A stretch of 64,000 nt of DNA, taken from positions 708 to 64,707 of the forward strand of contig JBMOMS010000173.1 of the NCBI GenBank assembly GCA_049324895.1. The letters are read 5' to 3'. Numbering within the stretch: the stretch's first letter is position 1; each line of letters opens with the position of its first letter. Below, in pieces: positions 9,069 to 57,386 of this stretch. The notes below the pieces were generated by a model, which ran no database searches, was not told the origin of the DNA, and was given only the letters and a program-made list of their open reading frames with translations. A program made the translations under genes and the position numbers. The stretch comes from Chloroflexota bacterium. Lineage in GTDB: Bacteria; Chloroflexota; Anaerolineae; Anaerolineales; Villigracilaceae.

Positions 9069-9950
9069 TCAAGCTTCCATACAACGCGCCAGGGCTTCCT
9101 GCCAGGGCGGGAGGCGCAGGCCGAAGGTGCGTTCAAAATGGGAACAATCCAGGGCCGAGAAGAGCGGACGCGCGGCTGGTGCGGGGAACTCATCGGTGCG
9201 GGCCGGCTGGATGGCCTGGACCCGCTGCTCGGTGCGCCTGGGATCGTTGGCGAGAATCTGCCTGGCCCACTCGAAGCGGGAGGCAAATCCCCAGCCTGCC
9301 AGGTGGTAGAGGCCGCTTTTTTCCCCCACGTAAGCGGGGAGGTCCTCCCCGCCGCGCGCCAGAAGCAGGGATGTGGCCTCGGCCAGCATCCGCGCCCAGG
9401 TAGGGTTGCTGACCTGGTCATCGACCACGCGCAAGTCTGGGTTGCTCCGCGCCCATCCCAGCAGTTTGGCAATGAAACTCTCGCCGCGCATGCTGTAGAC
9501 CCAGGCCGTGCGGAAGATGAGGTGGCGGCAACCCGCCGCCTGGATGGCCTGCTCGCCGGCCAGTTTGCTGCGGCCATAGACGCCGAGCGGGTTGGTTGGA
9601 TCCGTCTCCACATACGAACGGCCCAGGGTGCCGTCGAAGACGTAATCGGTGGAATAGTGAATCAGGCCGGCGCCCAGGGACCTGGCAGCTTCGGCCATTG
9701 CGCGCGGGGCGTGTTCGTTGATGGCAAAGGCCAGGTCCCGCTCCTGCTCGGCGCGGTCGACGGCGGTGTAGGCCGAGGCGTTGACGATCAGGTGCGGGGC
9801 CTGTTCGCGCAGGAAGGCTTCCAAAGCGGGAGCATCCCGCAGGTCCAGGTCGTCGCGGTCGACGGCCAGGACCTCGCCCAGGGGCGCGAGCGTGCGGCGC
9901 AGTTCCCAGCCCAACTGCCCGTACTTTCCGCCAAACAGGACGATCTTCAC
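9069..9950 (-). CDS. rfbD: dTDP-4-dehydrorhamnose reductase
   Basis: 293-aa RmlD-like ORF ([23 protein letters not shown]). 4-nt overlap with rfbA. Confidence 0.9.
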
Positions 9951-10819
9951 GCGCGTTTCTCCAACAGGCGGCGCAGGTAGTCGGTATAGCCGTTGTTCGC
10001 CATCCTCCCGACCTGTTCGCGCAGCTGCTCTTCGTTGATGTAACCCATGCGGTAGGCAATTTCCTCGGGACAGGAGATCATCATGCCCTGGCGTTCCTGC
10101 ACGGCCTGCACGAAGCCCGCCGATTGCAGCAGCGACTCGTGGGTGCCGGCGTCCAGCCAGGCCACGCCGCGCCCGAGGGTATCGACGTGCAGTTCGCCGC
10201 GTTCGAGGTACAGGCGGTTGAGGTCGGTGATCTCCAATTCGCCGCGCTTCGAGGGCTGGAGGTTTGCGGCCAGTTCGACCACCTTGGAGTCATAGAAATA
10301 AATCCCTGGCACGGCGAAATTCGATTTGGGCTGGGTGGGTTTTTCTTCCAGGCTGAGCACCAGGCCGTCCGAGTCGAATTCCACCACGCCGTAGCGTTCG
10401 GGGTCGCGCACCGCGTAGGCGAAGATCAGCGCGCCCGCTTTGAGCGCGGCGGCGCGGCGCAGCATCTCGGGCAGGCCGTGGCCGAAGAAGATGTTGTCGC
10501 CCAGGATGAGACAGGCGGAATCGCCGCCGATGAAATCCGCGCCAACGCGGAAGGCGTCTGCCAGCCCCCGCGGCTGGTCCTGCTCGACATAGCTGAACCT
10601 CAGCCCCCACTGACTCCCATCCTCCAGCAGGCGCTGAAAGTTGGGCAGGTCCTCGGGCGTGCTGATGACCAGAATCTCGCGGATACCCGCCAGCATGAGC
10701 ATCGACAGCGGATAGTACACCATCGGCTTGTCGTACACCGGCAGGAGTTGCTTGCTCATCACGAGTGTGAGCGGATTGAGGCGCGTGCCGCGCCCGCCAG
10801 CCAGGATGATTCCCTTCAT
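9947..10819 (-). CDS. rfbA: Glucose-1-phosphate thymidylyltransferase
   Basis: [19 protein letters not shown]-terminus. The start is taken at the internal ATG at 10819, just downstream of the rfbB stop, not at the ORF-track start. Confidence 0.92.
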
Positions 10820-10821
10820 GG

Positions 10822-11901
10822 TTACTGCTCCCGTTTCTGATAGTTTTGGTCGACCCATTTTTGGTAATCGCGTTGTTTCTGGATGGCGTCCATCCAGGCG
10901 GAGTTGGACAGATACCACTCGACCGTGGCGCGCAGGCCGTCGCTCAACGAATAGCGCGGCGACCAGCCCAGGTCGCGGTGGATCTTGTCGATGTTCATGG
11001 CGTAGCGGCGGTCGTGGCCGGGGCGGTCGGCGACGTAGGTGATCAGCTTGTTGTGCGGCAGGTTGGCCGAAGCGGGCTGGAACTCGTCCAGCATGTCGCA
11101 GATGGTCTCGACGATGGTCAGGTTGGCGGGCTGGTTCCCGCCGCCGATGTTGTAGGTCTCACCGGGCTGGCCCTTCGTCAAGATCAGGTGGATGGCCTCG
11201 CAATGATCCTCCACGTACAACCAGTCGCGGATCTGCTGGCCGTCGCCGTAGACCGGCAACGGCTTGCCGGTCATGCCGTTCAGGATCATCAGCGGGATGA
11301 GCTTCTCGGGGAATTGGTACGGTCCGTAATTGTTCGAGCAGTTCGAGATCGTGACGGGCAGCCCGTAGGTGTGGGCATACGAGCGCGCGATGTGGTCGCT
11401 GGAGGCCTTCGAGGCGGCGTAGGGCGAGTTGGGCGCGTAGGGCGTGGTCTCGGAGAAGGCGGGGTCCTTCGGCCCAAGCGTGCCGTAGACTTCATCGGTG
11501 GAGACGTGATGGAAGCGCACCTGGTCCTTCGGCAGAGCGCCCTCCCCCAGCCAGAACTTGCGCGCGGACTCCAGCAGGTTGAATGTGCCAAACACGTTGG
11601 TCTGAATGAACGGCTCAGGTCCCAGGATGGAGCGGTCGACGTGCGACTCGGCTGCGAAGTGAACGATGGTATCGACCTGATACTGGCGCAGGACTTGAGG
11701 GATGAGTTCGCGGTCGCAGATGTCGCCCTGCACGAAGGTATAGCGCTCCGCGCCAGGCAGGTCTTTGAGGTTCTCCAGGCTGCCGGCATAGGTCAGCGCA
11801 TCCAGGTTGACCAGCTGCACGTCGGGCTCGGCCTGGAGCAGATAGCGAACGAAATTGGAGCCGATAAACCCGGCGCCCCCTGTGACCAATACACGTTTCA
11901 T
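10822..11901 (-). CDS. rfbB: dTDP-glucose 4,6-dehydratase
   Basis: 359-aa ORF with [10 protein letters not shown] Rossmann and YAASKASSD catalytic motifs. Confidence 0.95.
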
Positions 11902-11924
11902 ATTCTCTCCTCGATTTACAGAAC

Positions 11925-12034
11925 GCGGACTTGAGTCCGCATTTTTGTTTCGACGGACTCAAGTCCGCACTCCAAACTTTCGTCTCATGGAGCGCAGATT
12001 TCAATCCGCATTTTTGCAGCAGACTGAAGTCTGC
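11925..12034. repeat. Four 16-nt palindromic units (GCGGACTTGAGTCCGC type) as a tandem about 68-nt duplication in the rfbC-rfbB spacer
   Basis: Units at 11925-11940, 11953-11968, about 11993-12009 and 12019-12034. Related copies are at 17292-17307 and elsewhere. Confidence 0.8.
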
Positions 12035-12042
12035 CTCCGAAA

Positions 12043-12591
12043 TTACGAATAAGTCTCCGCCTGGGAAAGCGGCAGGCCGTCCGCATCCTTTTTGGACAGG
12101 GTGGGCGCCGCTCCATCGACCAGCGGCCAGGAAATGGCCAGGGCGGGGTCGTTCCACAACAGGCTGCGCTCGTGCTGCGGGGCGTAATAGTCGCTGGCCT
12201 TGTAGAGGATTTCGGCCCGCTCACTCAGCACGTAGAAGCCGTGCGCAAAGCCGGGCGGGACCCATAACATTTGTTTGTTGCGGGCGGAAAGCGTCACGGC
12301 AACCCAGCGGCCAAAGGTGGGTGAACTGCGGCGCAAGTCGACGGCGACATCGTAGATCTCACCCGCCACGCAGCGCAACAATTTTCCCTGCGCCTGCTGG
12401 ATCTGGTAATGCAAGCCGCGCAGCACGCCCTGCGAAGATGCGGAGTGGTTATCCTGCACGAACCTGGCCGTGATGCCGGCAGCGGCAAAACGGTCCTCGC
12501 GGAAACTCTCCAAAAAGAAACCGCGCTCGTCCTCGAAAACCCTCGGGGTGACGAGGATGACATCCTGGATTTCCAACGGGGTGAATTCCAT
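12043..12591 (-). CDS. rfbC: dTDP-4-dehydrorhamnose 3,5-epimerase
   Basis: 182-aa RmlC-like ORF (FEDERGFF, RGLHYQ). The start abuts the wzt stop. Confidence 0.93.
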   Translation of the reverse strand: MEFTPLEIQDVILVTPRVFEDERGFFLESFREDRFAAAGITARFVQDNHSASSQGVLRGLHYQIQQAQGKLLRCVAGEIYDVAVDLRRSSPTFGRWVAVTLSARNKQMLWVPPGFAHGFYVLSERAEILYKASDYYAPQHERSLLWNDPALAISWPLVDGAAPTLSKKDADGLPLSQAETYS

Positions 12592-13341
12592 CTATTTGAC
12601 CTGGCCTTTTCGATACATGGCAATGACCTGCTTCGGGTCGCCGAACGCCTGCAACTTTCCATGATCGAGCCACATCACACGCGAGCACATGGACACGATC
12701 GTATCCATGCTGTGGCTGACCAGGAAGGTGGTCGTCCCCTCGGCGCGATAGTTCTGCATGCGCGCCTGGCATTTCTTGCGGAAGGCTTCGTCGCCCACCG
12801 AGAGGATCTCGTCCAGGATCAGGATCTCGGGTTCCCAGGCGGTCGCCACCGCAAAGCCGAGACGGGCCACCATGCCACTGGAATAGGTGCGCAGCGGGGC
12901 TTCGATGAAGGCGCCGATCTCCGCAAAATCGATGATCTCATCCATGCGTTCCTGGACTTCGGCCATCGGGTGTCCCAGCAGGGTGGCGTTGAGATAGACG
13001 TTCTCGCGGCCGGTCAACTCGGGGTGAAAACCAGCGCCCAGTTCGAGCAATGGCGACACCCGCCCGCGGATCCAAACACGGCCATCGGTCGGCACCAGCA
13101 CGCGCGAAATGACCTTCAGCATCGTGCTCTTGCCCGCGCCGTTGCGGCCAATGATGCCGACCGTTTCCCCTTTATCGACTTCGATGTCGATCCCGTCCAG
13201 CGCGGTGAATTCCTTGAAATTAACCTCGCGCTTCAACATGCGGATCATATATTCCTTGAAGGTGCGGATGCGCACCTCGGGCGCCTTGTATCGGACGGTC
13301 ACGTTTTGCAGCGCCACCACCAGGTCTTGAGACATTTCCAT
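12592..13341 (-). CDS. wzt: Polysaccharide ABC exporter ATP-binding protein (NBD only, no C-terminal carbohydrate-binding module)
   Basis: 249 aa. Walker A GRNGAGKST, signature YSSGM, Walker B ILILDE. Confidence 0.9.
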   Translation of the reverse strand: MEMSQDLVVALQNVTVRYKAPEVRIRTFKEYMIRMLKREVNFKEFTALDGIDIEVDKGETVGIIGRNGAGKSTMLKVISRVLVPTDGRVWIRGRVSPLLELGAGFHPELTGRENVYLNATLLGHPMAEVQERMDEIIDFAEIGAFIEAPLRTYSSGMVARLGFAVATAWEPEILILDEILSVGDEAFRKKCQARMQNYRAEGTTTFLVSHSMDTIVSMCSRVMWLDHGKLQAFGDPKQVIAMYRKGQVK

Positions 13342-13350
13342 GCCAGCCCC

Positions 13351-14190
13351 CTATGCCTTGTACGCGAAGCGGTCGGCGCGGCTGCAAAAGAAGACCCAGC
13401 CCACGGTCAGGGTCGTCAGGGAAATGGCGGCGGCAACCAAAAGGGTGTGGGCATCCGGCAGCTGCCCATCGTAGATGGGCGCGCGGAACAACTTGACCAG
13501 GTAATACATCGGGTTGAGGCCGAAGACCCAGGCCCGCATGGTCGCATCCGTGATGACGTCCTCGGGGTAGAAGATGGGCGTGAAGTACATCCAGGCCGTC
13601 AGGATGATCTGGTACATTTCGGACACGTCGGGGAAGGAAACCGCCAGGGTGGAAAAGAGCAGGCCAACCCCCAGGGCAAAGGCCGCCAGCAGGAGCATGG
13701 AGACCGGCAGGAAGAACACGTTCCAGGTCAATGCAATGCCGCTTCCCAGGATCACCACAACCAGCGGGATCAGGGAGATGGCCAGGTTGACCAACCCGGT
13801 TCCAACCGCAGAAATGGAAAAGGAGGTGCGCGGCATGTAAATGCGGTTCATCAGGGCCGCGCCCCACACCATCTGGTGGATGGCTGCGTTGGTGGTCTGG
13901 GCAAAGAAGGTCCAGGAAATCAACCCGCTCAACAGGTAGGCGGAATAGCCCTCCACGCGATGAAACAGGTTCGAGAAAACCAGGGTCAGGACGATCATCA
14001 TGCCCAGCGGCTGGAGCATGGTCCAGGCCACACCCAGGGCCGAGCGTTTGTAACGGGCCACGATGTCGCGGCGCACCAACTGCAGGATCAAATCCCGATA
14101 TTGATACACGCCGCGCAATTCCTCGAAGATCGCATTGCCACGACGGGAGCTGTCGTAAATATCGGGGGCGGAGATCAGCGAATTCGTCAT
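13351..14190 (-). CDS. wzm: ABC-2 type polysaccharide exporter permease
   Basis: 279-aa, 6-TM ABC-2 permease-like ORF immediately upstream of wzt. AAGGAG SD. Confidence 0.88.
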   Translation of the reverse strand: MTNSLISAPDIYDSSRRGNAIFEELRGVYQYRDLILQLVRRDIVARYKRSALGVAWTMLQPLGMMIVLTLVFSNLFHRVEGYSAYLLSGLISWTFFAQTTNAAIHQMVWGAALMNRIYMPRTSFSISAVGTGLVNLAISLIPLVVVILGSGIALTWNVFFLPVSMLLLAAFALGVGLLFSTLAVSFPDVSEMYQIILTAWMYFTPIFYPEDVITDATMRAWVFGLNPMYYLVKLFRAPIYDGQLPDAHTLLVAAAISLTTLTVGWVFFCSRADRFAYKA

Positions 14191-42862: not shown

Positions 42863-43259
42863 CGTTTGAGGCAGGGGGCTTCCAGCGCGATTTCTCACGC
42901 AGGCGGATGAGGTATTCGATGGCGATCAGGCCGGCCGCCAGGCCCATCCACACGTACAGGCTGACCATGCGGCCAAGTTGCAGCCAGGCCAGGGTCGCGC
43001 CGTACACGCCCACCCACAGGGCCTGGCGCACACTCACGTTCGGCTCGGCGGGCGGCTGGCTGGGGAAGCGGCGGTTGAACAAATAGGTGAACGGCAGGGC
43101 CGTGCCCGTCAGCGCCAGGATCAGCAGCAGGAAGAAGCTCCAGCGCAGCCAGACAAATGGCAGGGTGTAGTTGACCACCAGGTACAGTCCGCCCCATCCG
43201 AAAACCGCCATGAAGGCGGCGGGGATGAGAAAAGCGCGCGGGGAAGGTTGTGCGTCCAT
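42846..43259 (-). CDS. Small 4-TM membrane protein
   Basis: 137 aa. The start is at the ATG at 43259, with TATAAT 7 nt upstream (leaderless arrangement). Confidence 0.6.
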   Translation of the reverse strand: MDAQPSPRAFLIPAAFMAVFGWGGLYLVVNYTLPFVWLRWSFFLLLILALTGTALPFTYLFNRRFPSQPPAEPNVSVRQALWVGVYGATLAWLQLGRMVSLYVWMGLAAGLIAIEYLIRLREKSRWKPPASNDDQPA

Positions 43260-44072: not shown

Positions 44073-44250
44073 CAAATTGTTTTTGGGAACCCCCATTCAC
44101 GTCAAAAATTTGCGCTATAATGGCGCACAACATGGTCGGATATGTGAATACATTCACGAAAAAAGGGTGTGTGTTTGCAATTGAGCCATATCCTAATTTG
44201 TAGCATGCAGGATGGACAAGTCCTACATCTAACCGAGGAGCACGAGTAGA

Positions 44251-47200
44251 ATGCCATCGTTCGATGATGCCAATAGGCGGATATTTATTGTGTTGGGTAT
44301 GCACAGAAGCGGGACCAGCGCCATCACAAGAAGTTTGCGGGTCCTGGGTGTGGAACTTGGGGATCATCTCATCCCCCCCATGGAAGGCAACAATCCGACC
44401 GGCTTTTGGGAGGATGCAGATATCAACCGCCTCAACATCGAAATGCTGGCTTTCCTCCAGAGGGACTGGTATTTCCTGGCCCCCATCCAGGCGCGGGAGT
44501 TCGAAGCCTTGCGCGAAAATGGGTTCTTCCTGCGCGCGGCGGAAATACTGCGCAGAAAAACAAATGGCGTTCGTTCCTTTGGCCTCAAAGACCCGCGCAT
44601 TTCGATATTGCTTCCTTTCTGGAAGGAAGTTTTTGCAGCGTGCGAGTTGCAGGCCAGCTACATCCTGTCGGTTCGGCACCCGCTCAGCGTGTGTGAATCG
44701 CTGGCCAAACGCGACGGCTTTGACTTCGAGAGGGGCTATCTGCTGTGGATGAAGTACATGATTGCCAGCCTGGTGCATGTCGTGGGGGAAAACTGCATCG
44801 TGGTGGATTACGACAACCTGATGCGTTCCCCGCACATCGAACTGGACAGAATGTCCAGGAGCCTGGCGCTGGAGATCGACCCACAGGAACTCGCCACCTA
44901 CACAAACGAATTCCTCGACAGGAGCCTGCAGCACACGGTTTATCGACTGAGCGACCTGGAAGTGGACACTCCCCCGCTGGCGCGGGAAATCTACGCGGAA
45001 AGTTTCGAGCTGGCCAATGACCGCGCCAGCCTCCGCGATGCCGCCTTGGCAGACAAACTCACCCGCTGGAGCGGCGAATTTGCACGCCTGCAAGCGCTTC
45101 TGAAGCTGGCCGACAAACTCGAAATGCAGATTCTGGCCGGCAACCAGGCCATGCTGGAAAAAGACCGGGCCTTGAATTCCCTGTATGCCCAGATGCACGA
45201 AAAGGAACAGTATATCCAGGGCCTGCTATCCCAGATCGAAAAATGGGACGCGCAAGCGCAGGTCTTTGTGGGTCAGGTGCAATCGCTGTCTGCGCAACTG
45301 CACGAAAAGGAACAGTCCACACGGAACCTGCTTTCCCAGATCGAAAAATGGGACGCACAGTCGCAGGTCTTCGCAGGCCAGGTGCAATCGCTTTCTGCGC
45401 AGGTGGATGAGAGGAACGGGCAAATCTCCAACCTGCAGCAGGCCGTGATCGAACGGGATGGGCAGGTTTCCCGCCTTAACCAGGAACTGGCGCAAAGCTC
45501 CCAGGCGCTTTCCGCCCGCCTGGCCGACCGGGAACACGCCCTGCAAGACCTTTCAGCCCAATTGACGGACAAAGGACAGAACATTCAATCGCTCTCGACT
45601 CAATTGCTGGAAAAAGAACAAACGGTACAGAGTCTGGCGGTGCAGGCGGCAGAACTGGAACAAAAAATCCAGGCCCTCTCAAAGCAACTGGAAAACAAAA
45701 AGCAGGCTGCCCAAACGCTCAAGGCGCAATTGACGGCGATCCAAACCAGCCGCACGTGGAGGCTGGCCCTGTTCGTCCGCAAAGTACGGACTTCCGTCGC
45801 CCATCCCGGCCAACTCCTTGCCCCGCTGTTAAATTCCATCCGAAAGTCCAGAAGTGCCCAAAAGCAAAGGAATGATGCGCTGCTGGTGAAAAACTCCGGC
45901 CTGTTCGACCCAGCCTGGTACCTATCCCAATATCCCGACATCGCGCAGGCCGGGCTGGATCCCCTCATTCATTATCTCGGCGCGGGCGGATTGGAAGGCC
46001 GCGACCCCGGCCCCAACTTCAGCAGCGCCCTGTACCTTCAGGCCTACCCCGATATCCAAAAAGCAAAAAAGAACCCGCTGGTTCATTACCTCAACCACGG
46101 CAAACGGGAAGGCCGGCTGGCGCACCCGTCCCTGGCGGCCGCAAACCCAACGGCGGCGAACCCGCAACCCCAAAACAATGAACCCAACCCAAGGCCGCTG
46201 GACCCACAAACCGATAAGGACCGGTTCGATGCGACGTGGTACCTGGCCTTTTATCCCGATATTGCCGCAGCCGGGGTGGATCCCTACCAGCATTATCTTC
46301 AACACGGGAAATCTGAAGGCCGCCTGGGGTATCAGCCGGATCTGGTCCTTCAGCCGGGCCTGGCCGGCTTCGATCCGTCCAAGGAAAACGTACTCGTTGT
46401 CAGCCACGACGCTTCCCGCACCGGGGCGCCCATCCTGAGCTTGAACATCGTCCAAAACCTGCAACAACAATACAATGTGGTTTCCCTGCTGCTGGGAGAA
46501 GGATCGATTGCTGAAAATTTCCTGGCCGCATCGGCGTTCATGGTGGATGCAGGCCTTGCGAGGGGCAGTTACCTGTTGGCCGAGGTCATGATCGAACAAT
46601 TAACGAAAACTCACGATCTCAAATTTGCCATCGTCAACAGCATCGAATCCCGCGCCGTGATTCCCGCCCTGGCAAAACGCCATGTTCCAGTGGTGCATTT
46701 AATTCACGAATTTGCAGCCTACACCCGGCCGAAAGACGCTTTCCGCGAGGCCTTGTTTTGGTCTCATGCAGCCATTTTTTCAGCCTCCGTCACGCACAAA
46801 AATGCCGTTTCCGAATACCCCGAATTGGATAGCCAGCCGGTCCACATCATTCCACAAGGGCTGTGCGTCATTCCAAGCGCCAAAAACGACGCGGCGACCG
46901 AAACAGCAGAGGAGGCCAGAATTCTTGGCGTGCTCCGCCCGGATGGGGTGCCCGCCGGCGAGATTGTCGTCCTGGGCGTTGGAACGGTGAGCCTGAGAAA
47001 AGGCGTGGATTTGTTCATCGACTGCGCCTCCAGGATCGTCCAGTCTGCGGCAGGCAGGCGGTTTCGCTTCGTCTGGATCGGCAGTGGGTACGACCCAATA
47101 CAGGATGTCGGCTATTCAGTCTACCTGTACGATCAAATCCAGCGCGCGGGTTTGCAGGAACACCTCTTTTTCATGAAAGAGACCTCGAACATCAAAGCAG

Positions 47201-48567
47201 CCTACCGCGCGGCCGACATCCTGCTGGTCAGTTCCCGCCTGGACCCGCTGCCCAACGTAGGCATCGACGCCATGATGCACGAGCTGCCGCTGGTCTGCTT
47301 CCAGGACACGACGGGCATTGCAGATATCCTGGTTGCCCACGGCCTCGGGGAGGAATGTGTCTCTCCCTATCTGGACACAGCCGACATGGCGGCCAAGGTC
47401 ATGGCCTTTGCCAATTCCCCCGCCTTGCGAAAGCAGGTCGGTGAACAGCTGCATCAAGCCGCCCTGCAAGAATTCGACATGGAAAATTACATGTCGCAGG
47501 TCACTCAAGTCGCCGAAGCGGCCATCGATCAGGCGGCCAGGGAGCAGGCTGATATGACGCAGATCGCAAGCGCCAATGTGGCCCAACTGGAATACTTTTT
47601 ACCCCAACACCTCTCCATGACAGCGGAAGAGGCGGTCGGATATTACGTCCGCATGTGGGCCTGCGGCATCGATCGGCGGAAGCTGTTCCCGGGCTTCCAC
47701 CCGGGCATCTATGCAGAACGACACGGGCTGGACGACCCCCAGGCCGATCCCCTGGCCGATTACCTGCGCGCGGGACAGCCGTCCGGTCCCTGGCGCTATG
47801 ATGTCATCCCCTCGAACGCCGAGGTTCGGGCTTTGCCACCCGAATTCCGCGCGGCGCTTCACCTGCACGTCTTCTATGCGGACCTCCTGCCGGACATTCT
47901 GGAGCGGCTGAACGCAAACCAGGTCCGACCCGACCTGTTCGTCAGTGTTCCCACCGAGGCGCTGCGGGCCGAAGTCCAGGCAGAGTTGGCGCAAAAATAC
48001 CCCGGACGGGTGGTCGACGTCAAAGTGGTTCCCAATCGCGGACGCGACATCGGCCCGTTCCTGACCGCGTTCGGGCAGGAATTCATCGCAAAGTATGACG
48101 TGGTCGGCCATATCCACACCAAGAAAACAGCCGATGTCCAGGGTGAAAGGATGGCCCGCGATTGGTATCGTTTCCTGCTGGAAAACCTGCTGGGCGGAAC
48201 AGTCGCCATGGCCGACATCATTCTTGGACGACTGGCAAGCGACCCCTCCATTGGGATCATCCACCCGGACGATCCCTACGTGGTGGGCTGGGACAAGAAC
48301 AAACCCTACGCCATAGAACTCGGCAGGCGGCTTGGAATATTGGAGTTGCCGGAACATTTTCTGTTCCCGGTGGGAACCATGTTCTGGGCCAGGACTGAGG
48401 CCCTGCTGCCCCTGCTGGAATTGGGCCTGGACTGGCAGGATTATCCCGCAGAGCCTCTCCCCTACGACGGCTCCATGCTGCACGCCATCGAAAGGCTGCT
48501 GCCCTTCGTAACGACCAGCCGGGGATACCGTTCGGCGTTGACGCACGTTCAGGGAGTTACCAGATGA
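44251..48567 (+). CDS. Multidomain glycan synthase: sulfotransferase / about 220-aa coiled coil / 3 short WYL..YPD..HY..G..EGR repeats / GT1(GT4-like) / RgpF-like rhamnan-synthesis domain
   Basis: 1438 aa. Motifs seen: 5'-PSB-like GMHRSGTS, 3'-PB-like VRHPLSVCES, a heptad-rich Q/E/L region at about aa 285-505, a GT1 C-domain (LVSSRLDPLPNVGIDAMMHELPLVC), and RgpF motifs (LHLHVFYADLL, VPNRGRDIGPFL). GAGGAG SD. Confidence 0.85.
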   Translation: MPSFDDANRRIFIVLGMHRSGTSAITRSLRVLGVELGDHLIPPMEGNNPTGFWEDADINRLNIEMLAFLQRDWYFLAPIQAREFEALRENGFFLRAAEILRRKTNGVRSFGLKDPRISILLPFWKEVFAACELQASYILSVRHPLSVCESLAKRDGFDFERGYLLWMKYMIASLVHVVGENCIVVDYDNLMRSPHIELDRMSRSLALEIDPQELATYTNEFLDRSLQHTVYRLSDLEVDTPPLAREIYAESFELANDRASLRDAALADKLTRWSGEFARLQALLKLADKLEMQILAGNQAMLEKDRALNSLYAQMHEKEQYIQGLLSQIEKWDAQAQVFVGQVQSLSAQLHEKEQSTRNLLSQIEKWDAQSQVFAGQVQSLSAQVDERNGQISNLQQAVIERDGQVSRLNQELAQSSQALSARLADREHALQDLSAQLTDKGQNIQSLSTQLLEKEQTVQSLAVQAAELEQKIQALSKQLENKKQAAQTLKAQLTAIQTSRTWRLALFVRKVRTSVAHPGQLLAPLLNSIRKSRSAQKQRNDALLVKNSGLFDPAWYLSQYPDIAQAGLDPLIHYLGAGGLEGRDPGPNFSSALYLQAYPDIQKAKKNPLVHYLNHGKREGRLAHPSLAAANPTAANPQPQNNEPNPRPLDPQTDKDRFDATWYLAFYPDIAAAGVDPYQHYLQHGKSEGRLGYQPDLVLQPGLAGFDPSKENVLVVSHDASRTGAPILSLNIVQNLQQQYNVVSLLLGEGSIAENFLAASAFMVDAGLARGSYLLAEVMIEQLTKTHDLKFAIVNSIESRAVIPALAKRHVPVVHLIHEFAAYTRPKDAFREALFWSHAAIFSASVTHKNAVSEYPELDSQPVHIIPQGLCVIPSAKNDAATETAEEARILGVLRPDGVPAGEIVVLGVGTVSLRKGVDLFIDCASRIVQSAAGRRFRFVWIGSGYDPIQDVGYSVYLYDQIQRAGLQEHLFFMKETSNIKAAYRAADILLVSSRLDPLPNVGIDAMMHELPLVCFQDTTGIADILVAHGLGEECVSPYLDTADMAAKVMAFANSPALRKQVGEQLHQAALQEFDMENYMSQVTQVAEAAIDQAAREQADMTQIASANVAQLEYFLPQHLSMTAEEAVGYYVRMWACGIDRRKLFPGFHPGIYAERHGLDDPQADPLADYLRAGQPSGPWRYDVIPSNAEVRALPPEFRAALHLHVFYADLLPDILERLNANQVRPDLFVSVPTEALRAEVQAELAQKYPGRVVDVKVVPNRGRDIGPFLTAFGQEFIAKYDVVGHIHTKKTADVQGERMARDWYRFLLENLLGGTVAMADIILGRLASDPSIGIIHPDDPYVVGWDKNKPYAIELGRRLGILELPEHFLFPVGTMFWARTEALLPLLELGLDWQDYPAEPLPYDGSMLHAIERLLPFVTTSRGYRSALTHVQGVTR
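45196..45405 (+). repeat. In-frame tandem duplication of 105 bp (35 aa = 5 heptads) inside the coiled coil
   Basis: Units at 45196-45300 and 45301-45405 are about 80% identical, estimated by eye (HEKEQ..LLSQIEKWDAQ.QVF.GQVQSLSAQ). Confidence 0.85.
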
Positions 48568-48628: not shown

Positions 48629-49552
48629 ATGAATTGTGTGGTCATGGGAGGTGGTGGTTTCATTGGATCCCATTTATGCGAAGCGCTGCTGGCAGAAGGA
48701 CATGGCGTCAGGGCTTTCGACAGGCGGGAGGCTCGTTTTCTCCACGAAGTCGAACGCGCAGGGGCTGAAATCCAGGCCGGTGATTTTTTGAACCAGGCAG
48801 ACGTAAAAATTGCCCTGGCCGATGCGGACGTTGTTTATCATCTCATATCTGCAACCGTCCCCCAAACATCGAATGAAAGCCCCCTGAATGACGTGGAAAC
48901 CAATATCATGGGCACTTTGCGGCTGCTGGACGCCGCCAGGGATGCGCGGGTGAAGAAGGTCGTATATGCCTCATCCGGCGGAACGGTGTATGGAATTCCA
49001 CAGGAAATTCCCATCAAAGAAAGCCATCCCACCGACCCAACGAGTTCATACGGGATCTCAAAGCTCGCAACCGAAAAATACCTGCACCTCTACTCGATCC
49101 TGCACGGCCTGGACTACTGCATCCTGCGGGTTTCGAACGCGTATGGGGAAAGGCAGCCTGTCACGGGAACACAGGGAGTCATTGGAACATTTTTGGAGCG
49201 TGCCATCCAGGATGACGAAATTCCCGTCCTGGGCGACGGCCATATCATGCGCGATTACATCCATGTCGGTGATATTGCCGCCGCCTTTGCCAAGGCCGGG
49301 AAATATACCGGTGAATCCCGCATTTTCAACATCGGCACGGGGCAGGGACATAGCGTCAATGACATCATCGAGCTTATCGAACACATCACCCGACGGCCCC
49401 TCAAAGTAAAATACCTGCCCAACCGCGTCTTCGATGTGCCCTTCAACATTTTGGATATATCCCACGCCAAAATGTACCTGGACTGGCAGCCAAAGGTAAG
49501 CATCTTCGAGGGAATTTCACGGACTTACGAATGGATGCTGTCTCGCTCATAA
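48629..49552 (+). CDS. NAD-dependent sugar epimerase/dehydratase (SDR family)
   Basis: 307 aa. GGGGFIGSH Rossmann motif and catalytic YGISK. Confidence 0.88.
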   Translation: MNCVVMGGGGFIGSHLCEALLAEGHGVRAFDRREARFLHEVERAGAEIQAGDFLNQADVKIALADADVVYHLISATVPQTSNESPLNDVETNIMGTLRLLDAARDARVKKVVYASSGGTVYGIPQEIPIKESHPTDPTSSYGISKLATEKYLHLYSILHGLDYCILRVSNAYGERQPVTGTQGVIGTFLERAIQDDEIPVLGDGHIMRDYIHVGDIAAAFAKAGKYTGESRIFNIGTGQGHSVNDIIELIEHITRRPLKVKYLPNRVFDVPFNILDISHAKMYLDWQPKVSIFEGISRTYEWMLSRS

Positions 49553-49621
49553 GCGCAAGTCGTGCATGAGATCACTTCCACGCCCAAGCGGATGGAAAGG
49601 ACGATCAGTAAGGAGTTCCAA

Positions 49622-50185
49622 ATGTTGACGTTCCTTCGCAAGAACTGGATTCACCTGGCGGCCTGGACCGGGATGTTGTTCTACCTTGCGTTTGCCAACG
49701 ACCTGTACGTTCACTTCTTCCTCAAATACGGGAAGCCGGTCCTGGTCAATTCACAATTGCCCGCCGAAAGCGATCAAATCAAGGGGCATGTCGATCTTTT
49801 CGAACCTATTGTTTATGAGGGCCAAAAAATGTATTCGCTTGTGGGATGGGCATTTTCAATAGCAGATTCAACAATCCGTCCCGAAGACTATGACCGCCAG
49901 CTTGTTTTGATATCTGCCACAAATAATTATCACTTTCCCATGGAGGCCTACTCACGGCCTGATGTCCATGCAGCCTTCCAGTCCCTTGGAATGGAACTGA
50001 CCATGTCCGGCTACCATGCCAATGTTTCTCAAGAAGCCATAGCCCCTGGCATTTACCAGGTCGGTTTTGTGTTTCATAATATCCAGGATGGATCGATTTA
50101 TCATTCCCGTATAAATAAATACCTGATCTGCACCCCCAATCGCCTTCAGATCAGTGATACGCCTGCGCTCCCAGCGGGAGAATAA
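49622..50185 (+). CDS. Hypothetical membrane-anchored protein
   Basis: 187 aa. The start is set at the ATG at 49622, after AAGGAG. One N-terminal TM helix. The region is lower in GC. Confidence 0.6.
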   Translation: MLTFLRKNWIHLAAWTGMLFYLAFANDLYVHFFLKYGKPVLVNSQLPAESDQIKGHVDLFEPIVYEGQKMYSLVGWAFSIADSTIRPEDYDRQLVLISATNNYHFPMEAYSRPDVHAAFQSLGMELTMSGYHANVSQEAIAPGIYQVGFVFHNIQDGSIYHSRINKYLICTPNRLQISDTPALPAGE

Positions 50186-50212
50186 GATAGCCTCCCTCGA
50201 ATCCGTATAGAG

Positions 50213-51697
50213 ATGAAAATGTCAAAATCAACCAGGCCCCAAGCATTGAATATCCTAAAAGCCGCGATCCTGCCAATTTTAATGGCTGTATTTCCAGCAA
50301 TCTTTTTATATGGAAACAACGTCACATTACTATTACTGCCCACCTTGGGAAGAACCATCCTTCTGTACACCGTCCTGGCGCTGTTTTTCTTTGGCATAAC
50401 CCACCTCATTTTTGGAGGTCAAACCGTCAAAGCCGCCAATGCAGCATTTATTTACTTGATCTTCTTTAACACCTATGGAATGGGTTTTGAGTTTTTGGTC
50501 GCGAAAGACTGGTTTCGGGTCGATCACTTCACGCTGCTTCCATTTTTCCTGTTTCTTGCCATGTATGGAATTTGGGCCGTTTCCAGGGTCAATGCTGTCG
50601 CCTTTTGGAAAGGCGCAGTGATTGTAACGGGATTGCTGGTGGCTTTTAATGTGATGAAGATCATCCCCGCCGAAATCGAAAAACACGCGGTTCAACGCAA
50701 GCAGGAAGCCCCGTCCTCTACGAACGCGGAAGTTGGCACGGAATATCCCGACATCTATTACATAATTTTCGATGAGTTTGCGGGCTTCGACGTGATGCGT
50801 TCCTATTGGAACTATCAGGGAGTCGATGACTTTGTGGATTTTGCAAAATCAAATGGATTCCTGGTGGCGGAAAACAGCAGAAGCAGTTCGTCCATGACGC
50901 TTCACCAGCTCAGCGAGCGGTTGAATTATGAAGAATTTCCAAGCGATGAGAAATATTTCAACATGTACTACGCCGCAATCAGAAACAACAAAGTGATGAG
51001 TTATCTGAAATCGAAAGGTTACATGACCCTGGCATTTGAAGAAACCGGTTACTTCGTAGAGGCCCTGCCGCGCATCGAAGCGGATTACGTTTATGAATAC
51101 AGCGCCAGCAGTTCAATGGATATCGGATTGTTGTTCGATGACTTTGGCTCTCATGTTGCAGACAATACCATGCTAAGAATTTTTTCCAATTCCTATCGAA
51201 CGATTGACCCCACCATGAACCAGCATCGGGATTGGATTTTGTTTACAACGGCAAAAATGGGGGATTTGGACGATGTTCCATCCCCAAAATTTGTTTACGT
51301 CCACCTGTTGCTTCCGCACATGCCCTTCATGTTCGATGAAAACGGCAAGGTCCTGGACCAAAGCCTTTACTATAACTGGCAATATTACCTCGGCAACTAT
51401 AAATATTCGATCAAAGTGGCGGAAAGGATGATCCAAAATATCCGATCCAATTCAGATCCCCATAACCCGCCCATCATTATCATTCAATCGGATCATGGAG
51501 CGCGAAATATCGAGGTTTGGCAGCCGGGCAATCAACTGCTCCGGGATTATCCCGAGGAATACAGTTACCACATTCTTAACATGATGCATGCCCCCGGTCT
51601 CGACCCTGCCCAGTTCCCACAGGACATGAATCCAATCAATACCTTTCCGATCGTCTTCAACCACCTATTCGACGATCACATTCCCCTGCACAAATGA
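50213..51697 (+). CDS. Membrane-bound sulfatase/alkaline-phosphatase-superfamily transferase (LTA-synthase / phospho-substituent transferase-like)
   Basis: 494 aa. About 5 TM helices at the N-terminus, then IIFDEFAG and IIIQSDHG motifs typical of the superfamily. Confidence 0.7.
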   Translation: MKMSKSTRPQALNILKAAILPILMAVFPAIFLYGNNVTLLLLPTLGRTILLYTVLALFFFGITHLIFGGQTVKAANAAFIYLIFFNTYGMGFEFLVAKDWFRVDHFTLLPFFLFLAMYGIWAVSRVNAVAFWKGAVIVTGLLVAFNVMKIIPAEIEKHAVQRKQEAPSSTNAEVGTEYPDIYYIIFDEFAGFDVMRSYWNYQGVDDFVDFAKSNGFLVAENSRSSSSMTLHQLSERLNYEEFPSDEKYFNMYYAAIRNNKVMSYLKSKGYMTLAFEETGYFVEALPRIEADYVYEYSASSSMDIGLLFDDFGSHVADNTMLRIFSNSYRTIDPTMNQHRDWILFTTAKMGDLDDVPSPKFVYVHLLLPHMPFMFDENGKVLDQSLYYNWQYYLGNYKYSIKVAERMIQNIRSNSDPHNPPIIIIQSDHGARNIEVWQPGNQLLRDYPEEYSYHILNMMHAPGLDPAQFPQDMNPINTFPIVFNHLFDDHIPLHK

Positions 51698-51798
51698 CCG
51701 CCCCTCGCGCATGGAGCTTGTCGGGCGGGGCCGAAGCGCGCATCAGTGATAAAATCAAAGCATCGTAATTGGCCCACATTTTTCACAAAGGAGCAGTC

Positions 51799-55364: not shown

Positions 55365-55376
55365 GGTTTTGGGTAC

Positions 55377-55473
55377 AGACCTGTCAGGTCTCTTTGAAAG
55401 TATCGCGCAAAAGACGGCGTGCGGGGATCAGGGTCATGACTGGTCATGGATTCGCGGAGACCTGACAGGTCTC
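55377..55473. repeat. Pair of AGACCTGTCAGGTCT-type palindromes flanking an about 65-nt spacer
   Basis: Units at 55377-55391 and 55457-55473, lying between the GNAT stop and the GT start. Confidence 0.75.
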
Positions 55474-57116: not shown

Positions 57117-57165
57117 TGGAACCTCGCTGCATGGGGAATGGCGCGGAACGCAAATGCGCCGCCTT

Positions 57166-57297
57166 GTAATTATACCCAGCGCGGTCACAAATTGCGCTTT
57201 TTTAGGGCGGGGAATGCGCGCTGCCCTGGCGCCCTCCGCCACGATAGTCCCCGAAGCAAAGCGGAGCGGGAGGGCGTGTGACCGTGGGTATTATATA
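57166..57297. repeat. Promoter-associated palindromic element, copy B
   Basis: Arms are TAATTATACCCAGCGCGGTCACAAATTGCGC and GTGTGACCGTGGGTATTATATAC. The minus-strand TATAAT (57168-57173) lies about 50 nt upstream of the aminotransferase start. Confidence 0.7.
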
Positions 57298-57386
57298 CGC
57301 CATGAACCCGCCGCGCCTGCTTTCAAAAGCTCCCGCCGCCGGGGACGGCAACGGGAGCCATTGTCATGGAAATGAGCTGGCGGGTT

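What the first reader, a model, noticed from the sequence alone, without database searches (positions are those of the whole stretch)
44251..48567. 1438-aa single-polypeptide glycan synthase with WbbB/WbdD-like 'terminator - coiled-coil ruler - polymerase' layout, but with a sulfotransferase as the head domain
The domain order, read from the sequence, is:
- a P-loop sulfotransferase (GMHRSGTS 5'-PSB-like, VRHPLSVCES 3'-PB-like; aa 1-280)
- about 220 aa of heptad-rich coiled coil (aa 285-505)
- three short WY..YPD..HY..G..EGR repeats
- a GT1/GT4-type glycosyltransferase (aa 700-1080)
- an RgpF-type rhamnan-synthesis domain (LHLHVFYADLL, VPNRGRDIGPFL; aa 1100-1438)

In ABC-transporter-dependent O-antigen systems, chain length is set by a coiled-coil molecular ruler. 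The ruler separates a chain-terminating enzyme from the polymerising GTs. In E. coli O9a WbdD the terminator is a kinase/methyltransferase. In Raoultella/Klebsiella O12 WbbB it is a beta-Kdo transferase, and WbbB makes a rhamnose-containing polymer.

The architecture here is the same, and rfbABCD plus wzm/wzt are present at 9-14 kb. Sulfation as the chain-terminating cap would be a new variant.

Two caveats apply. The Wzt here is NBD-only (249 aa, no cap-recognising CBM) and lies 30 kb away. The sulfotransferase could also decorate the polymer rather than cap it.
Basis: partly seen in the sequence, partly recalled or inferred. Interest (0 to 1): 0.8.

Follow-up and report, generated by a model that had tools for sequence, protein, structure and literature searches.

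The report
Sulfotransferase-headed coiled-coil glycan synthase
A 1438-residue bacterial enzyme joins a sulfate-adding domain, through a very long rigid helical spacer, to two sugar-polymerising domains, the layout bacteria use to measure and cap surface sugar chains; this suggests that sulfation is a widespread but untested way of ending such chains.

Summary
ORF 44251-48567(+) encodes, in order:
- a PAPS-type sulfotransferase head
- about 235 residues of helix with heptad periodicity
- three 33-residue repeats
- a complete GT4 glycosyltransferase
- an RgpF-type C-terminal domain

The head models at pLDDT 93, and its top 31 structural matches are all sulfotransferases. Its PAPS-binding motifs are invariant across homologues.

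The protein is not unique. The head profile finds 11,441 protein clusters at E<=1e-30, nearly always N-terminal, ahead of a coil and varied glycosyltransferase sets.

In 7 of 8 homologue loci the gene directly follows wzm-wzt, and that Wzt carries a cap-reading Wzt_C module. Four of the 8 loci carry APS kinase.

Spacer length across the family varies in whole heptads (p=3e-7). This gene itself holds a 105-bp (5-heptad) duplication in the coil.

Together this supports a sulfate-capping terminator-ruler-polymerase, a new variant of the WbbB/WbdD/WsaE kind. Function is untested.

Caveats for this window:
- The only Wzt lacks the cap-reading module and belongs to a different lineage.
- No PAPS-synthesis genes were found among the ORFs scanned.
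- The host is a Chloroflexota MAG, so the product may be a wall or S-layer glycan rather than O-antigen.
- A 2019 census that I could not read may already have predicted this class.

The parts
44251..48567 (+). Whole ORF, 1438 aa: sulfotransferase head, coiled coil, repeats, GT4, RgpF-like domain. No transmembrane segment.
   Evidence: maximum Kyte-Doolittle 19-mer 1.56
44235..44240 (+). GAGGAG ribosome-binding site, 10 nt before the ATG at 44251. It supports the long start; NCBI's start at M17 would remove the conserved strand beta1.
   Evidence: V14, L15, G16 are 94-99% conserved; P0001 is 1422 aa
44251..45030 (+). PAPS-type sulfotransferase head, aa 1-260
   Evidence: AF2 pLDDT 93.2; Foldseek top 31 hits are all sulfotransferases; PDB profile hits CurM ST and OLS ST; Pfam PF13469 at 25.2 bits
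44296..44319 (+). 5'-phosphosulfate-binding loop, G16-M-H-R-S-G-T-S23
   Evidence: invariant or at least 97% conserved in 31-119 homologues
44674..44712 (+). 3'-phosphate-binding motif, R142-H-P-L-S-V-C-E-S150-L-A-K-R154
   Evidence: R142, P144, S150 and R154 are invariant; the motif aligns with the equivalent CurM ST/OLS ST segment
45040..45744 (+). Coiled-coil spacer, aa 264-498, about 235 residues of helix
   Evidence: AF2 helices 264-370 and 374-498; heptad score; SMC/Rad50-type hits
45194..45401 (+). Tandem duplication inside the coil: period 105 bp (35 aa, 5 heptads), 2 copies, 84% identical
45745..45789 (+). Basic helix at the foot of the coil carrying the family-wide S-x-S/T-W-R motif (aa 499-513, SRTWRLALFVRKVR). 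Possible membrane or partner contact; this is unproven.
   Evidence: consensus SxSWR in A2; helix in AF2; hydrophobic moment only 0.94
45904..46323 (+). Three 33-residue repeats (F552-R584, F590-R622, F659-R691) with the motif FDxxWYLxxYPDIxxAGxDPxxHYLxxGxxEGR. No Pfam family matches.
   Evidence: translation; conserved in A2; no Pfam hit at E<=10
46387..47505 (+). GT4-type GT-B glycosyltransferase, aa 713-1085
   Evidence: PF00534 at 60 bits, PF13692 at 57 bits; Foldseek BshA, HepE, WaaG, PimA, TM 0.64-0.79 normalised to the target; PDB profile hit at 7.7e-9
47800..48564 (+). RgpF-type alpha/beta domain, aa 1184-1438. It matches only the C-terminal half of PF05045.
   Evidence: 163-167 bits, profile positions 268-503 of 503; AF2 alpha/beta domain, pLDDT about 90
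48629..49552 (+). NAD-dependent sugar epimerase/reductase, 307 aa. A conserved downstream partner in homologue loci.
   Evidence: an epimerase follows the homologue in L001, L003, L005 and the P0002 locus
49562..51697 (+). Two low-GC genes. orf207 has an N-terminal hydrophobic segment, by reading of the translation. orf494 has N-terminal hydrophobic segments and a weak sulfatase/alkaline-phosphatase-like C-terminal domain. Both are probably part of the same acquired cassette.
   Evidence: translations; Sulfatase E=0.017, below cutoff; GC 0.46-0.49 against 0.60 for the window
12592..14190 (-). wzm (13351-14190) and wzt (12592-13341; 249 aa, NBD only, no CBM)
9069..12591 (-). rmlC (12043-12591), rmlB (10822-11901), rmlA (9947-10918), rmlD (9069-9950): dTDP-L-rhamnose supply

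Best explanation
The ORF encodes a soluble, single-polypeptide glycan synthase that probably sits at the cytoplasmic face of the membrane.

Proposed mechanism:
- The C-terminal GT4 and RgpF-type modules extend a rhamnose-containing polymer on a lipid-linked primer. They would use dTDP-L-rhamnose from the rml genes in the window.
- The N-terminal PAPS-dependent sulfotransferase is held at the far end of a coiled coil of about 235 residues. That is about 35 nm if the coil is a continuous parallel one.
- The sulfotransferase sulfates the non-reducing end once the chain is long enough to reach it. This blocks further extension and so sets the modal chain length.
- In most relatives the sulfated end would then be read by a conserved Wzt_C module on the ABC exporter.

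What is shown: the domain order, the sulfotransferase fold and its intact cofactor motifs, the long helix with heptad periodicity, and the family-wide link to CBM-bearing Wzt and PAPS-supply genes.

What is inferred: capping rather than decoration, ruler action, the oligomeric state, rhamnose as substrate, and the export route in this organism.

In this Chloroflexota MAG the product is more likely a wall-linked or S-layer-type glycan than LPS O-antigen. The cap-reading exporter is either elsewhere in the genome or has been lost.
For: Head is a sulfotransferase:
- AF2 pLDDT 93.2.
- The Foldseek top 31 hits are all sulfotransferases: OLS ST 4gox, TPST2, CurM ST.
- The PDB profile search returns sulfotransferases as its seven best hits.
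- HRSGTS, KDPR, RxPxxxxxS..R and E54 are invariant.

PAPS use:
- APS kinase is present in 4 of 8 homologue loci.
- A. caviae also has PAPS_reduct-family and GTP_EFTU-family genes, read here as cysD and cysN, and a sulfate-transporter-family gene inside the cluster.

Terminator-ruler layout:
- The head is N-terminal, followed by a coil, in about all of the 120 best homologues, with interchangeable polymerase sets: GT4+RgpF, RgpF+WbsX, or GT2 sets.
- The distance from the head motif to the SxSWR motif ranges from 108 to 404 aa. In 38 of 58 proteins it is 3 mod 7. For distinct lengths, chi-square gives p=3.5e-7 for modulus 7 and p>0.5 for moduli 5, 6, 8, 9 and 11.
- Single-heptad steps (185/192, 213/220) argue for an extended coil rather than a hairpin.
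- The window gene carries a 105-bp (5-heptad) duplication in the coil.

Cap-reading export in the family:
- Wzt with Wzt_C lies directly upstream in 7 of 8 loci.
- In four of these loci the CBMs are 53-68% identical across Pseudomonas, Aeromonas, Desulfofarcimen and an unnamed metagenome contig, and across polymerase types, with invariant Arg/Lys/His.

Polymerase: GT4 and RgpF hits; rmlABCD in the window and next to 4 of the 8 homologue loci, with a lone rmlC in a fifth.

Precedents: WbbB, WbdD and K. pneumoniae O7 ORF6 (PMC11231755); WsaE (PMC2943079).
Against: - No biochemical or glycan-structure data exist for any member that I could find.
- In the window the only Wzt is NBD-only. No Wzt_C-like sequence is found by tblastn across the 64 kb. 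Its NBD is of a different lineage. The gene is 30 kb from wzm/wzt and is flanked upstream by nitroreductase and SelA genes.
- No APS kinase or cysDN was found among the window ORFs scanned.
- The query's own spacer, 271 aa, is 5 mod 7, which is out of the dominant phase.
- AF2 monomer confidence in the coil is only about 65-75, with a break at about aa 371-373. A hairpin cannot be excluded from the output.
- The Pfam sulfotransferase score is just below the gathering cutoff.
- The RgpF match covers only half of the model, and no solved structure informs that domain.
- The post-coil helix is only weakly amphipathic, so membrane anchoring is unproven.
Confidence: 0.55

Rival explanations
1. The sulfotransferase decorates internal residues of the polymer, giving a sulfated polysaccharide, rather than capping it. 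The coil only oligomerises or scaffolds the synthase, and chain length is set by coupling between polymerisation and export.
For: - The window has only a CBM-less Wzt. This is the arrangement of systems whose export does not depend on a terminator, such as K. pneumoniae O2a, and of V. cholerae O1 (PMC10629545).
- Internally sulfated bacterial polysaccharides are known (titles).
- Locus L008 has a second, standalone sulfotransferase, which shows that sulfation can be a separate tailoring step.
Against: - A decorating enzyme would be expected near the polymerase active sites, not at the far end of a 108-404-residue spacer whose length is heptad-quantised.
- 7 of 8 homologue loci pair the protein with a Wzt_C module, the hallmark of capped systems (PMC11231755).
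- The CBMs compared, from four of these loci, are conserved across different polymerase types. That fits a shared end-group ligand.
Confidence: 0.2
2. The cap and ruler logic applies, but the product here is an S-layer-protein glycan or secondary cell-wall polymer of a monoderm. It would be exported by the CBM-less Wzm/Wzt, so the sulfate cap limits length without being an export checkpoint. This would be a WsaE-like system.
For: - The source is annotated as a Chloroflexota MAG.
- Two SLH-domain proteins, a DegT aminotransferase, a GNAT, a Glyco_trans_1_2 glycosyltransferase and a large polytopic membrane protein lie directly downstream.
- WsaE is a precedent in a monoderm.
- The synthase-to-orf494 block has lower GC, as described for S-layer glycan clusters.
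Against: - No oligosaccharyltransferase or ligase could be assigned. The 672-aa membrane protein has no family hit.
- The rest of the genome is unseen, so a CBM-bearing Wzt elsewhere cannot be excluded.
Confidence: 0.15
3. The head is catalytically dead or is a nucleotide-binding regulatory domain, or the coil is an antiparallel hairpin that puts the head next to the GTs. In either case there is no ruler.
For: - Pfam score below cutoff.
- Foldseek TM only about 0.5.
- AF2 shows a helix break near the middle of the coil.
- No PAPS-synthesis genes in the window.
Against: - All PAPS-binding motif residues and a candidate base, E54, are invariant across 31 diverse members.
- 11,441 clusters retain the domain at E<=1e-30.
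- APS kinase co-occurs in 4 of 8 loci.
- Single-heptad length steps are hard to reconcile with a two-armed hairpin.
Confidence: 0.08

Closest known systems
WbbB (Klebsiella pneumoniae O12 / Raoultella terrigena)
   Same: - A single polypeptide with an N-terminal chain terminator, a coiled-coil ruler and two C-terminal polymerase GT modules.
- It makes a rhamnose-containing polymer.
- It is paired with Wzm/Wzt, and the CBM on Wzt reads the cap (PMC11231755). Family members here show the same gene neighbourhood.
   Different: - The WbbB terminator is a GT99 beta-Kdo transferase, not a sulfotransferase.
- Its polymerase modules are GT102/GT103, not GT4 plus RgpF-type.
- A profile search of the PDB sequence set, which should include any deposited WbbB chains, returned no WbbB-named entry.
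- The window itself lacks a CBM-bearing Wzt.
WbdD (E. coli O9a / K. pneumoniae O3, O5) and ORF6 of K. pneumoniae O7
   Same: - An N-terminal terminating enzyme at the distal end of an extended coiled coil whose length sets chain length.
- O7 ORF6 also carries two C-terminal GT modules that add rhamnose (PMC11231755).
   Different: - The cap chemistry is methyl or phospho-methyl, added by a methyltransferase and kinase, and not sulfate.
- WbdD recruits a separate polymerase, WbdA.
- The GT modules of ORF6 are GT2.
WsaE (Geobacillus stearothermophilus NRS 2004/3a S-layer glycan)
   Same: - A monoderm host and a poly-L-rhamnan product.
- One soluble protein with an N-terminal capping enzyme and two rhamnosyltransferase domains.
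- wzm, wzt and wsaE are contiguous, and the central region has lower GC (PMC2943079).
   Different: - The cap is 2-O-methyl.
- The text I read does not describe a long coiled-coil ruler.
[quoted passage not shown]
PAPS-dependent sulfotransferases of the TPST / CurM-ST / OLS-ST / PF13469 type
   Same: The fold, the 5'-PSB loop (RSGT) and the 3'-PB motif (RxPxxxxxS).
   Different: - TM is only about 0.5 and identity 15-20%.
- The acceptor is presumed to be a glycan terminus.
- The domain is fused to a coiled coil and to GTs.
HNK-1 sulfotransferase acting on matriglycan (animals)
   Same: Sulfation of a sugar on a linear glycan made by a dual-GT polymerase. [quoted passage not shown] That this limits extension is my own recollection.
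   Different: A separate Golgi enzyme, with no coiled-coil ruler fusion. It is an unrelated system and an analogy only.

Membership tests
Coiled-coil ruler terminator/polymerase systems of ABC-transporter-dependent glycan assembly (WbdD/WbbB class) | A non-polymerase, end-modifying enzyme domain at the end of the coiled coil distal to the polymerase or membrane end | tested here: met
   The sulfotransferase head is at aa 1-260, the coil at aa 264-498 and the GT modules are C-terminal. The same order holds in about 120 homologues. Terminating activity itself was not testable.
Coiled-coil ruler terminator/polymerase systems of ABC-transporter-dependent glycan assembly (WbdD/WbbB class) | An extended oligomeric coiled coil | tested here: inconclusive
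   About 235 residues of predicted helix, heptad periodicity and family-wide heptad-quantised length all support a coiled coil.
Coiled-coil ruler terminator/polymerase systems of ABC-transporter-dependent glycan assembly (WbdD/WbbB class) | Polymerase GT modules fused to, or recruited at, the proximal end | tested here: met
   GT4 (aa 713-1085) and RgpF-type (aa 1184-1438) domains.
Coiled-coil ruler terminator/polymerase systems of ABC-transporter-dependent glycan assembly (WbdD/WbbB class) | A Wzm/Wzt exporter whose Wzt carries a C-terminal carbohydrate-binding module that reads the cap | tested here: not met
   In the window, Wzt is 249 aa and NBD-only, and no Wzt_C-like sequence occurs in the 64 kb. 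In the family, the feature is met in 7 of 8 loci. The rest of the MAG is unseen.
Coiled-coil ruler terminator/polymerase systems of ABC-transporter-dependent glycan assembly (WbdD/WbbB class) | Coil length determines the modal glycan chain length | not testable with these tools
   This needs heptad insertion and deletion mutants with chain-length profiling. The only indirect evidence is the whole-heptad length variation and the 5-heptad duplication.
PAPS-dependent sulfotransferase superfamily (Pfam PF13469 Sulfotransfer_3 type) | Sequence score above the family's curated threshold | tested here: not met
   25.2 bits against a cutoff of 27. Many homologues carry a precomputed PF13469 hit, and the PDB profile search gives CurM ST at E=1e-3.
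PAPS-dependent sulfotransferase superfamily (Pfam PF13469 Sulfotransfer_3 type) | Sulfotransferase fold | tested here: met
   AF2 pLDDT 93.2 and pTM 0.91. Foldseek ranks 1-31 are all sulfotransferases, E down to 6.7e-6, TM about 0.5.
PAPS-dependent sulfotransferase superfamily (Pfam PF13469 Sulfotransfer_3 type) | 5'-phosphosulfate-binding loop and 3'-phosphate-binding motif | tested here: met
   H18-R-S-G-T-S23 and R142-x-P-x5-S150-x3-R154 are present and invariant. The 3'-PB segment aligns with CurM ST and OLS ST. Equivalence of the 5'-PSB loop is by motif inspection plus general knowledge of the family.
PAPS-dependent sulfotransferase superfamily (Pfam PF13469 Sulfotransfer_3 type) | Catalytic base positioned next to the acceptor hydroxyl | tested here: inconclusive
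   E54, in the conserved GFWED motif, is invariant and is a candidate. No residue-level structural superposition was available to confirm that it is equivalent to the catalytic base of known sulfotransferases (a glutamate in TPST2 and CurM ST, from my recollection).
PAPS-dependent sulfotransferase superfamily (Pfam PF13469 Sulfotransfer_3 type) | Availability of the PAPS donor (APS kinase) | tested here: inconclusive
   None was found among the window ORFs scanned. APS kinase is embedded in 4 of 8 homologue loci. The rest of the genome is unseen.
GT4 glycosyltransferases (GT-B) | Pfam Glycos_transf_1 above threshold and a two-Rossmann GT-B fold | tested here: met
   60.4 bits against a cutoff of 26.4. 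Foldseek gives BshA at 6.5e-16, with TM 0.75-0.79, normalised to the target, for BshA and HepE. The usual E-x7-E motif reads D998-x7-D1006 here and is conserved in the family (by inspection).
RgpF family (PF05045, rhamnan synthesis protein F) | Full-length match to the family model | tested here: not met
   The score is strong (163-167 bits) but covers only profile positions 268-503 of 503. The N-terminal half of the model is not matched. Rhamnosyltransferase activity is inferred from the family name only.

The most novel reading that the evidence does not exclude
Sulfation of the non-reducing end is a widespread, so far uncharacterised chain-terminating chemistry in ABC-transporter-dependent glycan assembly. 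It would be carried out by a dedicated sulfotransferase head, found in more than 11,000 protein clusters, mounted on a heptad-quantised coiled-coil ruler. It would be read by a conserved, probably sulfate-recognising Wzt_C module. The system would occur in diderms and monoderms alike, and the Chloroflexota copy would be a laterally acquired, exporter-uncoupled version.
Probability: 0.5. Interest if true: 0.75.

Novelty: new variant of a known kind. Interest (0 to 1): 0.6.

Why it matters
Chain-length control by terminator-ruler proteins has been worked out experimentally for only a few caps: methyl, phospho-methyl and beta-Kdo, plus alpha-Kdo in K. pneumoniae O4.

A sulfate cap would add a new chemistry, and the numbers suggest it is common: 21,366 clusters at E<=1e-10.

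It would imply that many structurally 'solved' O-antigens and wall glycans carry an overlooked, negatively charged terminal epitope. Such an epitope would matter for phage, antibody and lectin recognition.

It would also predict a sulfate-reading carbohydrate-binding module on Wzt.

The question is directly testable, because cultured carriers were identified here: Pseudomonas atacamensis, P. alkylphenolica, Aeromonas caviae, Stutzerimonas zhaodongensis and Desulfofarcimen acetoxidans DSM 771.

The heptad-quantised spacer lengths and the 5-heptad duplication give a natural allelic series for testing the ruler idea.

Tried and rejected
- A single-sequence PDB search with the head found nothing useful. 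A profile was needed.
- A single-sequence PDB search of aa 551-1438 and a profile search with A2 gave only GT4 hits and coiled-coil noise. No WbbB relative appeared, and nothing was found for the RgpF-type domain. Sequence homology to WbbB is therefore rejected, and the resemblance is architectural only.
- Foldseek with the 1189-residue model was dominated by GT4 hits, so the fold class of the C-terminal domain stays unresolved.
- Pfam at E<=10 on the repeat region found no family.
- NCBIfam and Pfam on orf207, orf494 and orf672 gave nothing above threshold.
- Looking up P0001 to recover the MAG accession failed, so other contigs of the genome could not be examined for a CBM-bearing Wzt or cysC.
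- Ten literature searches found no paper linking a sulfotransferase with WbdD, WbbB or ruler systems.
- The key census (Mann, Kimber and Whitfield 2019, Glycobiology 29:822) and the 2020 JBC review are not held. From memory, the census abstract says it 'predicted new chemistries'. I cannot verify whether sulfotransferases were among them.
- The idea that the post-coil helix is a clear amphipathic membrane anchor was dropped, because its hydrophobic moment is only 0.94.

Full report
**Observation**

The ORF is real and lies exactly where stated: 44251-48567 on the + strand, 1438 aa. A GAGGAG ribosome-binding site sits 10 nt upstream of the ATG. The identical database protein (P0001) is named 'MAG: rhamnan synthesis F family protein [Chloroflexota bacterium]' and starts 16 residues later, at M17. 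Residues V14, L15 and G16 are 94-99% conserved in homologues, so the long start is the right one.

- Sulfotransfer_3 at aa 13-210, 25.2 bits, just below the 27-bit cutoff.
- SMC/Rad50-type coiled-coil hits over about aa 280-505.
- Glycos_transf_1 and Glyco_trans_1_4 at aa 901-1066, 60 and 57 bits, with weak GT4 N-domain hits at aa 713-870.
- RgpF at aa 1197-1426, 163 bits, but matching only positions 268-503 of the 503-position model.

The three short repeats are at F552-R584, F590-R622 and F659-R691. They have no Pfam family. The window also holds rmlD, rmlA, rmlB, rmlC, a 249-aa wzt and wzm at 9069-14190 on the minus strand.

**The head domain**

An alignment of 31 diverse heads (A1) shows these invariant residues: G16, M17, H18, R19, G21, S23, N48, G51, E54, K113, D114, P115, R116, W124, R142, P144, S150, L151, R154, L165, W166, D188 and L226. 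They include the 5'-phosphosulfate loop (HRSGTS), the KxP element, the 3'-phosphate motif (RxPxxxxxS...R) and a candidate catalytic glutamate in GFWED.

A profile search of the PDB returns sulfotransferases as its seven best hits: CurM ST at E=1e-3, OLS ST, then cytosolic SULTs. HS 3-OST is among the weaker hits.

AlphaFold2 gives pLDDT 93.2 and pTM 0.91. The first 31 Foldseek hits are all sulfotransferases, at E about 7e-6 and TM about 0.5.

I conclude that the head is a divergent PAPS-type sulfotransferase with its cofactor-binding motifs intact.

**The rest of the protein**

A model of aa 250-1438 (pLDDT 79) predicts the following:
- Two very long helices, aa 264-370 and aa 374-498.
- A short basic helix carrying the family-wide SxSWR motif.
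- Low-confidence linkers around the repeats.
- A complete GT-B domain.
- A confident alpha/beta C-terminal domain.

The GT-B domain matches GT4 enzymes: BshA, HepE, WaaG and PimA, with TM 0.64-0.79 normalised to the target. No solved structure, WbbB included, matches by sequence beyond the GT4 part. The protein has no transmembrane segment.

**Family**

The protein is not unique. The word-indexed search gave 777 homologues. Sub-domain BLAST shows the head at the N-terminus of essentially all of the 120 best hits, at 31-56% identity. It is followed by a coil and then by different GT sets: GT4+RgpF as here, RgpF+WbsX, several GT2 combinations, and methyltransferase-containing forms.

An exhaustive profile search finds the following numbers of 50%-identity clusters:

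| E-value threshold | Clusters |
|---|---|
| 1e-3 | 26,897 |
| 1e-10 | 21,366 |
| 1e-30 | 11,441 |

Cultured carriers include Pseudomonas atacamensis, P. alkylphenolica, Aeromonas caviae, Geopseudomonas aromaticivorans, Plasticicumulans acidivorans, Stutzerimonas species, Acidovorax and Desulfofarcimen acetoxidans DSM 771.

**Genomic context of relatives**

I examined eight loci.
- In seven, the gene directly follows wzm-wzt, and that Wzt (411-711 aa) carries the Wzt_C carbohydrate-binding module.
- rml gene sets adjoin four of the eight loci, with a lone rmlC in a fifth.
- An NAD-dependent epimerase follows in four. The window has the same gene at 48629-49552.
- APS kinase lies in four loci.
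- A. caviae additionally has PAPS_reduct-family and GTP_EFTU-family genes, which I read as cysD and cysN, and a sulfate-transporter-family gene inside the cluster.
- One locus, Plasticicumulans, is 'orphan' like the window.

The Wzt_C modules of four sulfotransferase-head loci are 53-68% identical to each other. These come from Pseudomonas, Aeromonas, Desulfofarcimen and an unnamed metagenome contig, and from different polymerase types. That is nearly as conserved as their NBDs (68-71%), and they share invariant Arg, Lys and His residues. This pattern fits a shared end-group ligand.

**Ruler evidence**

I measured the distance from a conserved head motif (query F221-H228) to the SxSWR motif at the foot of the coil.
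- It ranges from 108 to 404 residues in the 58 proteins that have both motifs.
- In 38 of the 58, and in 18 of 36 distinct lengths, the distance is 3 mod 7.
- Chi-square on distinct lengths gives p=3.5e-7 for modulus 7 and p>0.5 for moduli 5, 6, 8, 9 and 11.

The spacer therefore changes in whole heptads while keeping the head and base in phase. Single-heptad steps are common, which favours an extended coil over a two-armed hairpin.

In the window gene, Tandem Repeats Finder detects a 105-bp duplication at 45194-45401, with 84% matches. It corresponds to exactly 35 aa, or five heptads, so it is a recent lengthening of the coil.

The query's own spacer, 271 aa, is 5 mod 7 and so lies off the dominant phase. 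I leave this unexplained.

**What is different in this window**

- The upstream neighbours are nitroreductase and SelA genes, not wzm-wzt.
- The only Wzt is NBD-only. tblastn with four Wzt_C domains finds nothing in the 64 kb.
- The window's NBD is only 45-50% identical to the sulfotransferase-head-associated Wzt proteins. It is probably not the cognate cap-reading exporter.
- No PAPS-synthesis gene was seen among the ORFs scanned.
- GC content:

| Region | GC |
|---|---|
| Synthase | 0.58 |
| Epimerase | 0.53 |
| orf207 | 0.49 |
| orf494 | 0.46 |
| Whole window | 0.60 |
| Flanking regions | 0.62-0.67 |

  The block at 44.2-51.7 kb therefore looks like an acquired cassette.
- Downstream lie a 672-aa polytopic membrane protein, a Glyco_trans_1_2 GT, a GNAT, a DegT aminotransferase and two SLH-domain proteins.

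Given the Chloroflexota annotation, the product is more plausibly a wall-linked or S-layer-type glycan than an O-antigen.

**Comparison with known systems**

The layout is that of WbbB, and of K. pneumoniae O7 ORF6 and WbdD. In those proteins a terminator sits at the distal end of a coiled-coil ruler, and only capped chains are exported through a CBM-bearing Wzt (PMC11231755).

In a monoderm, WsaE of G. stearothermophilus combines an N-terminal 2-O-methyl-capping domain with two rhamnosyltransferase domains next to wzm-wzt (PMC2943079).

What differs here is the cap chemistry (sulfate) and the polymerase modules (GT4 plus RgpF-type).

I found no open-access paper that connects a sulfotransferase with these systems. 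The 2019 census by Mann, Kimber and Whitfield, which may have predicted this class, could not be read.

An A. salmonicida O-antigen cluster has a standalone sulfotransferase gene between wzt and wbbB, and no sulfate was reported in the glycan (PMC4483657). Terminal modifications are known to be overlooked (PMC10629545).

**Verdict**

The architecture and its family-wide link to PAPS supply and to a cap-reading exporter make a sulfate-capping terminator-ruler-polymerase the best explanation, at about 0.55.

Not demonstrated: capping as opposed to decoration, the oligomeric state, and ruler function. This particular copy also lacks the exporter checkpoint within the window.

It is a new, experimentally uncharacterised variant of a known kind and a member of a very large family.

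Noticed in passing
window 45194-45401: A 105-bp tandem duplication (2 copies, 84% identical) inside the coiled-coil region. It equals exactly 35 aa, or five heptads, so it is a recent in-frame lengthening of the spacer.
   Followed up: yes
120 homologues P0002-P0120: The head-to-SxSWR spacer length (108-404 aa) is heptad-quantised. 38 of 58 proteins are 3 mod 7 (p=3.5e-7), with no signal for other moduli. The window protein, at 271 aa, is off-phase at 5 mod 7. This is unexplained.
   Followed up: yes
window 44251-44298: The public annotation of the identical protein (P0001, 1422 aa) starts at M17. That cuts the conserved beta1 strand before the PAPS loop. The ATG at 44251, with a GAGGAG site 10 nt upstream, is the better start.
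   Followed up: yes
window 45904-46323, and possibly about 47690-47800: Three 33-aa repeats (FDxxWYLxxYPDIxxAGxDPxxHYLxxGxxEGR) are conserved in many family members and have no Pfam family. A fourth, degenerate copy (FHPGIYAERHGLDDPQADPLADYLRAGQPSGPW) seems to precede the RgpF-type domain. Their function is unknown.
   Followed up: partly
window 49400-51700: A pronounced low-GC stretch (0.45-0.49 against 0.60) covers orf207 and orf494. The synthase and epimerase are also below the flanking GC. This suggests a laterally acquired cassette spanning 44.2-51.7 kb.
   Followed up: partly
window 50213-51697 (+): A 494-aa protein with several N-terminal hydrophobic segments (by reading of the translation) and a C-terminal domain that weakly resembles sulfatase/alkaline-phosphatase enzymes (PF00884, E=0.017; motif IIIQSDHG). 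It could be an LtaS/GacH-like phospho-substituent transferase acting on the exported glycan. The hit is below threshold.
   Followed up: partly
window 52279-54297 (-): A 672-aa polytopic membrane protein with no family hit in Pfam or NCBIfam. It lies between the cassette and a Glyco_trans_1_2 GT, and might be a GT-C-type transferase or ligase for the glycan.
   Followed up: no
window 54294-62804 (-): A run of envelope genes: Glyco_trans_1_2 GT (54294-55364), a GNAT domain at the 3' end of ORF 55474-56787, DegT aminotransferase (55977-57242), and two large SLH-domain proteins (57387-60248 and 60483-62804). Together they indicate an S-layer or wall-anchored protein context.
   Followed up: partly
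L001, L003, L004, L005 Wzt C-termini: The Wzt_C modules of sulfotransferase-head loci are 53-68% identical across Pseudomonas, Aeromonas, Desulfofarcimen and an unnamed metagenome contig, with invariant Arg, Lys and His residues. They are candidates for a sulfate-reading CBM clade.
   Followed up: partly
L008 5060-7979: In a Desulfocapsaceae MAG the Wzt is 711 aa (ABC_tran, Wzt_C and a weak GT2 hit). A second, standalone 259-aa Sulfotransfer_3 gene lies between wzt and the sulfotransferase-headed synthase.
   Followed up: no
literature, PMC4483657: The Aeromonas salmonicida O-antigen cluster has a 216-aa sulfotransferase-domain gene between wzt and a WbbB homologue, although no sulfate was reported in the O-antigen. 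A terminal sulfate may have been overlooked.
   Followed up: no
window 21380-23800 and 41504-42898: A cytochrome cd1 (NirS-type) nitrite reductase with c-type cytochrome domains, and a selenocysteine synthase (SelA), are encoded in the window. Neither is related to the finding.
   Followed up: no
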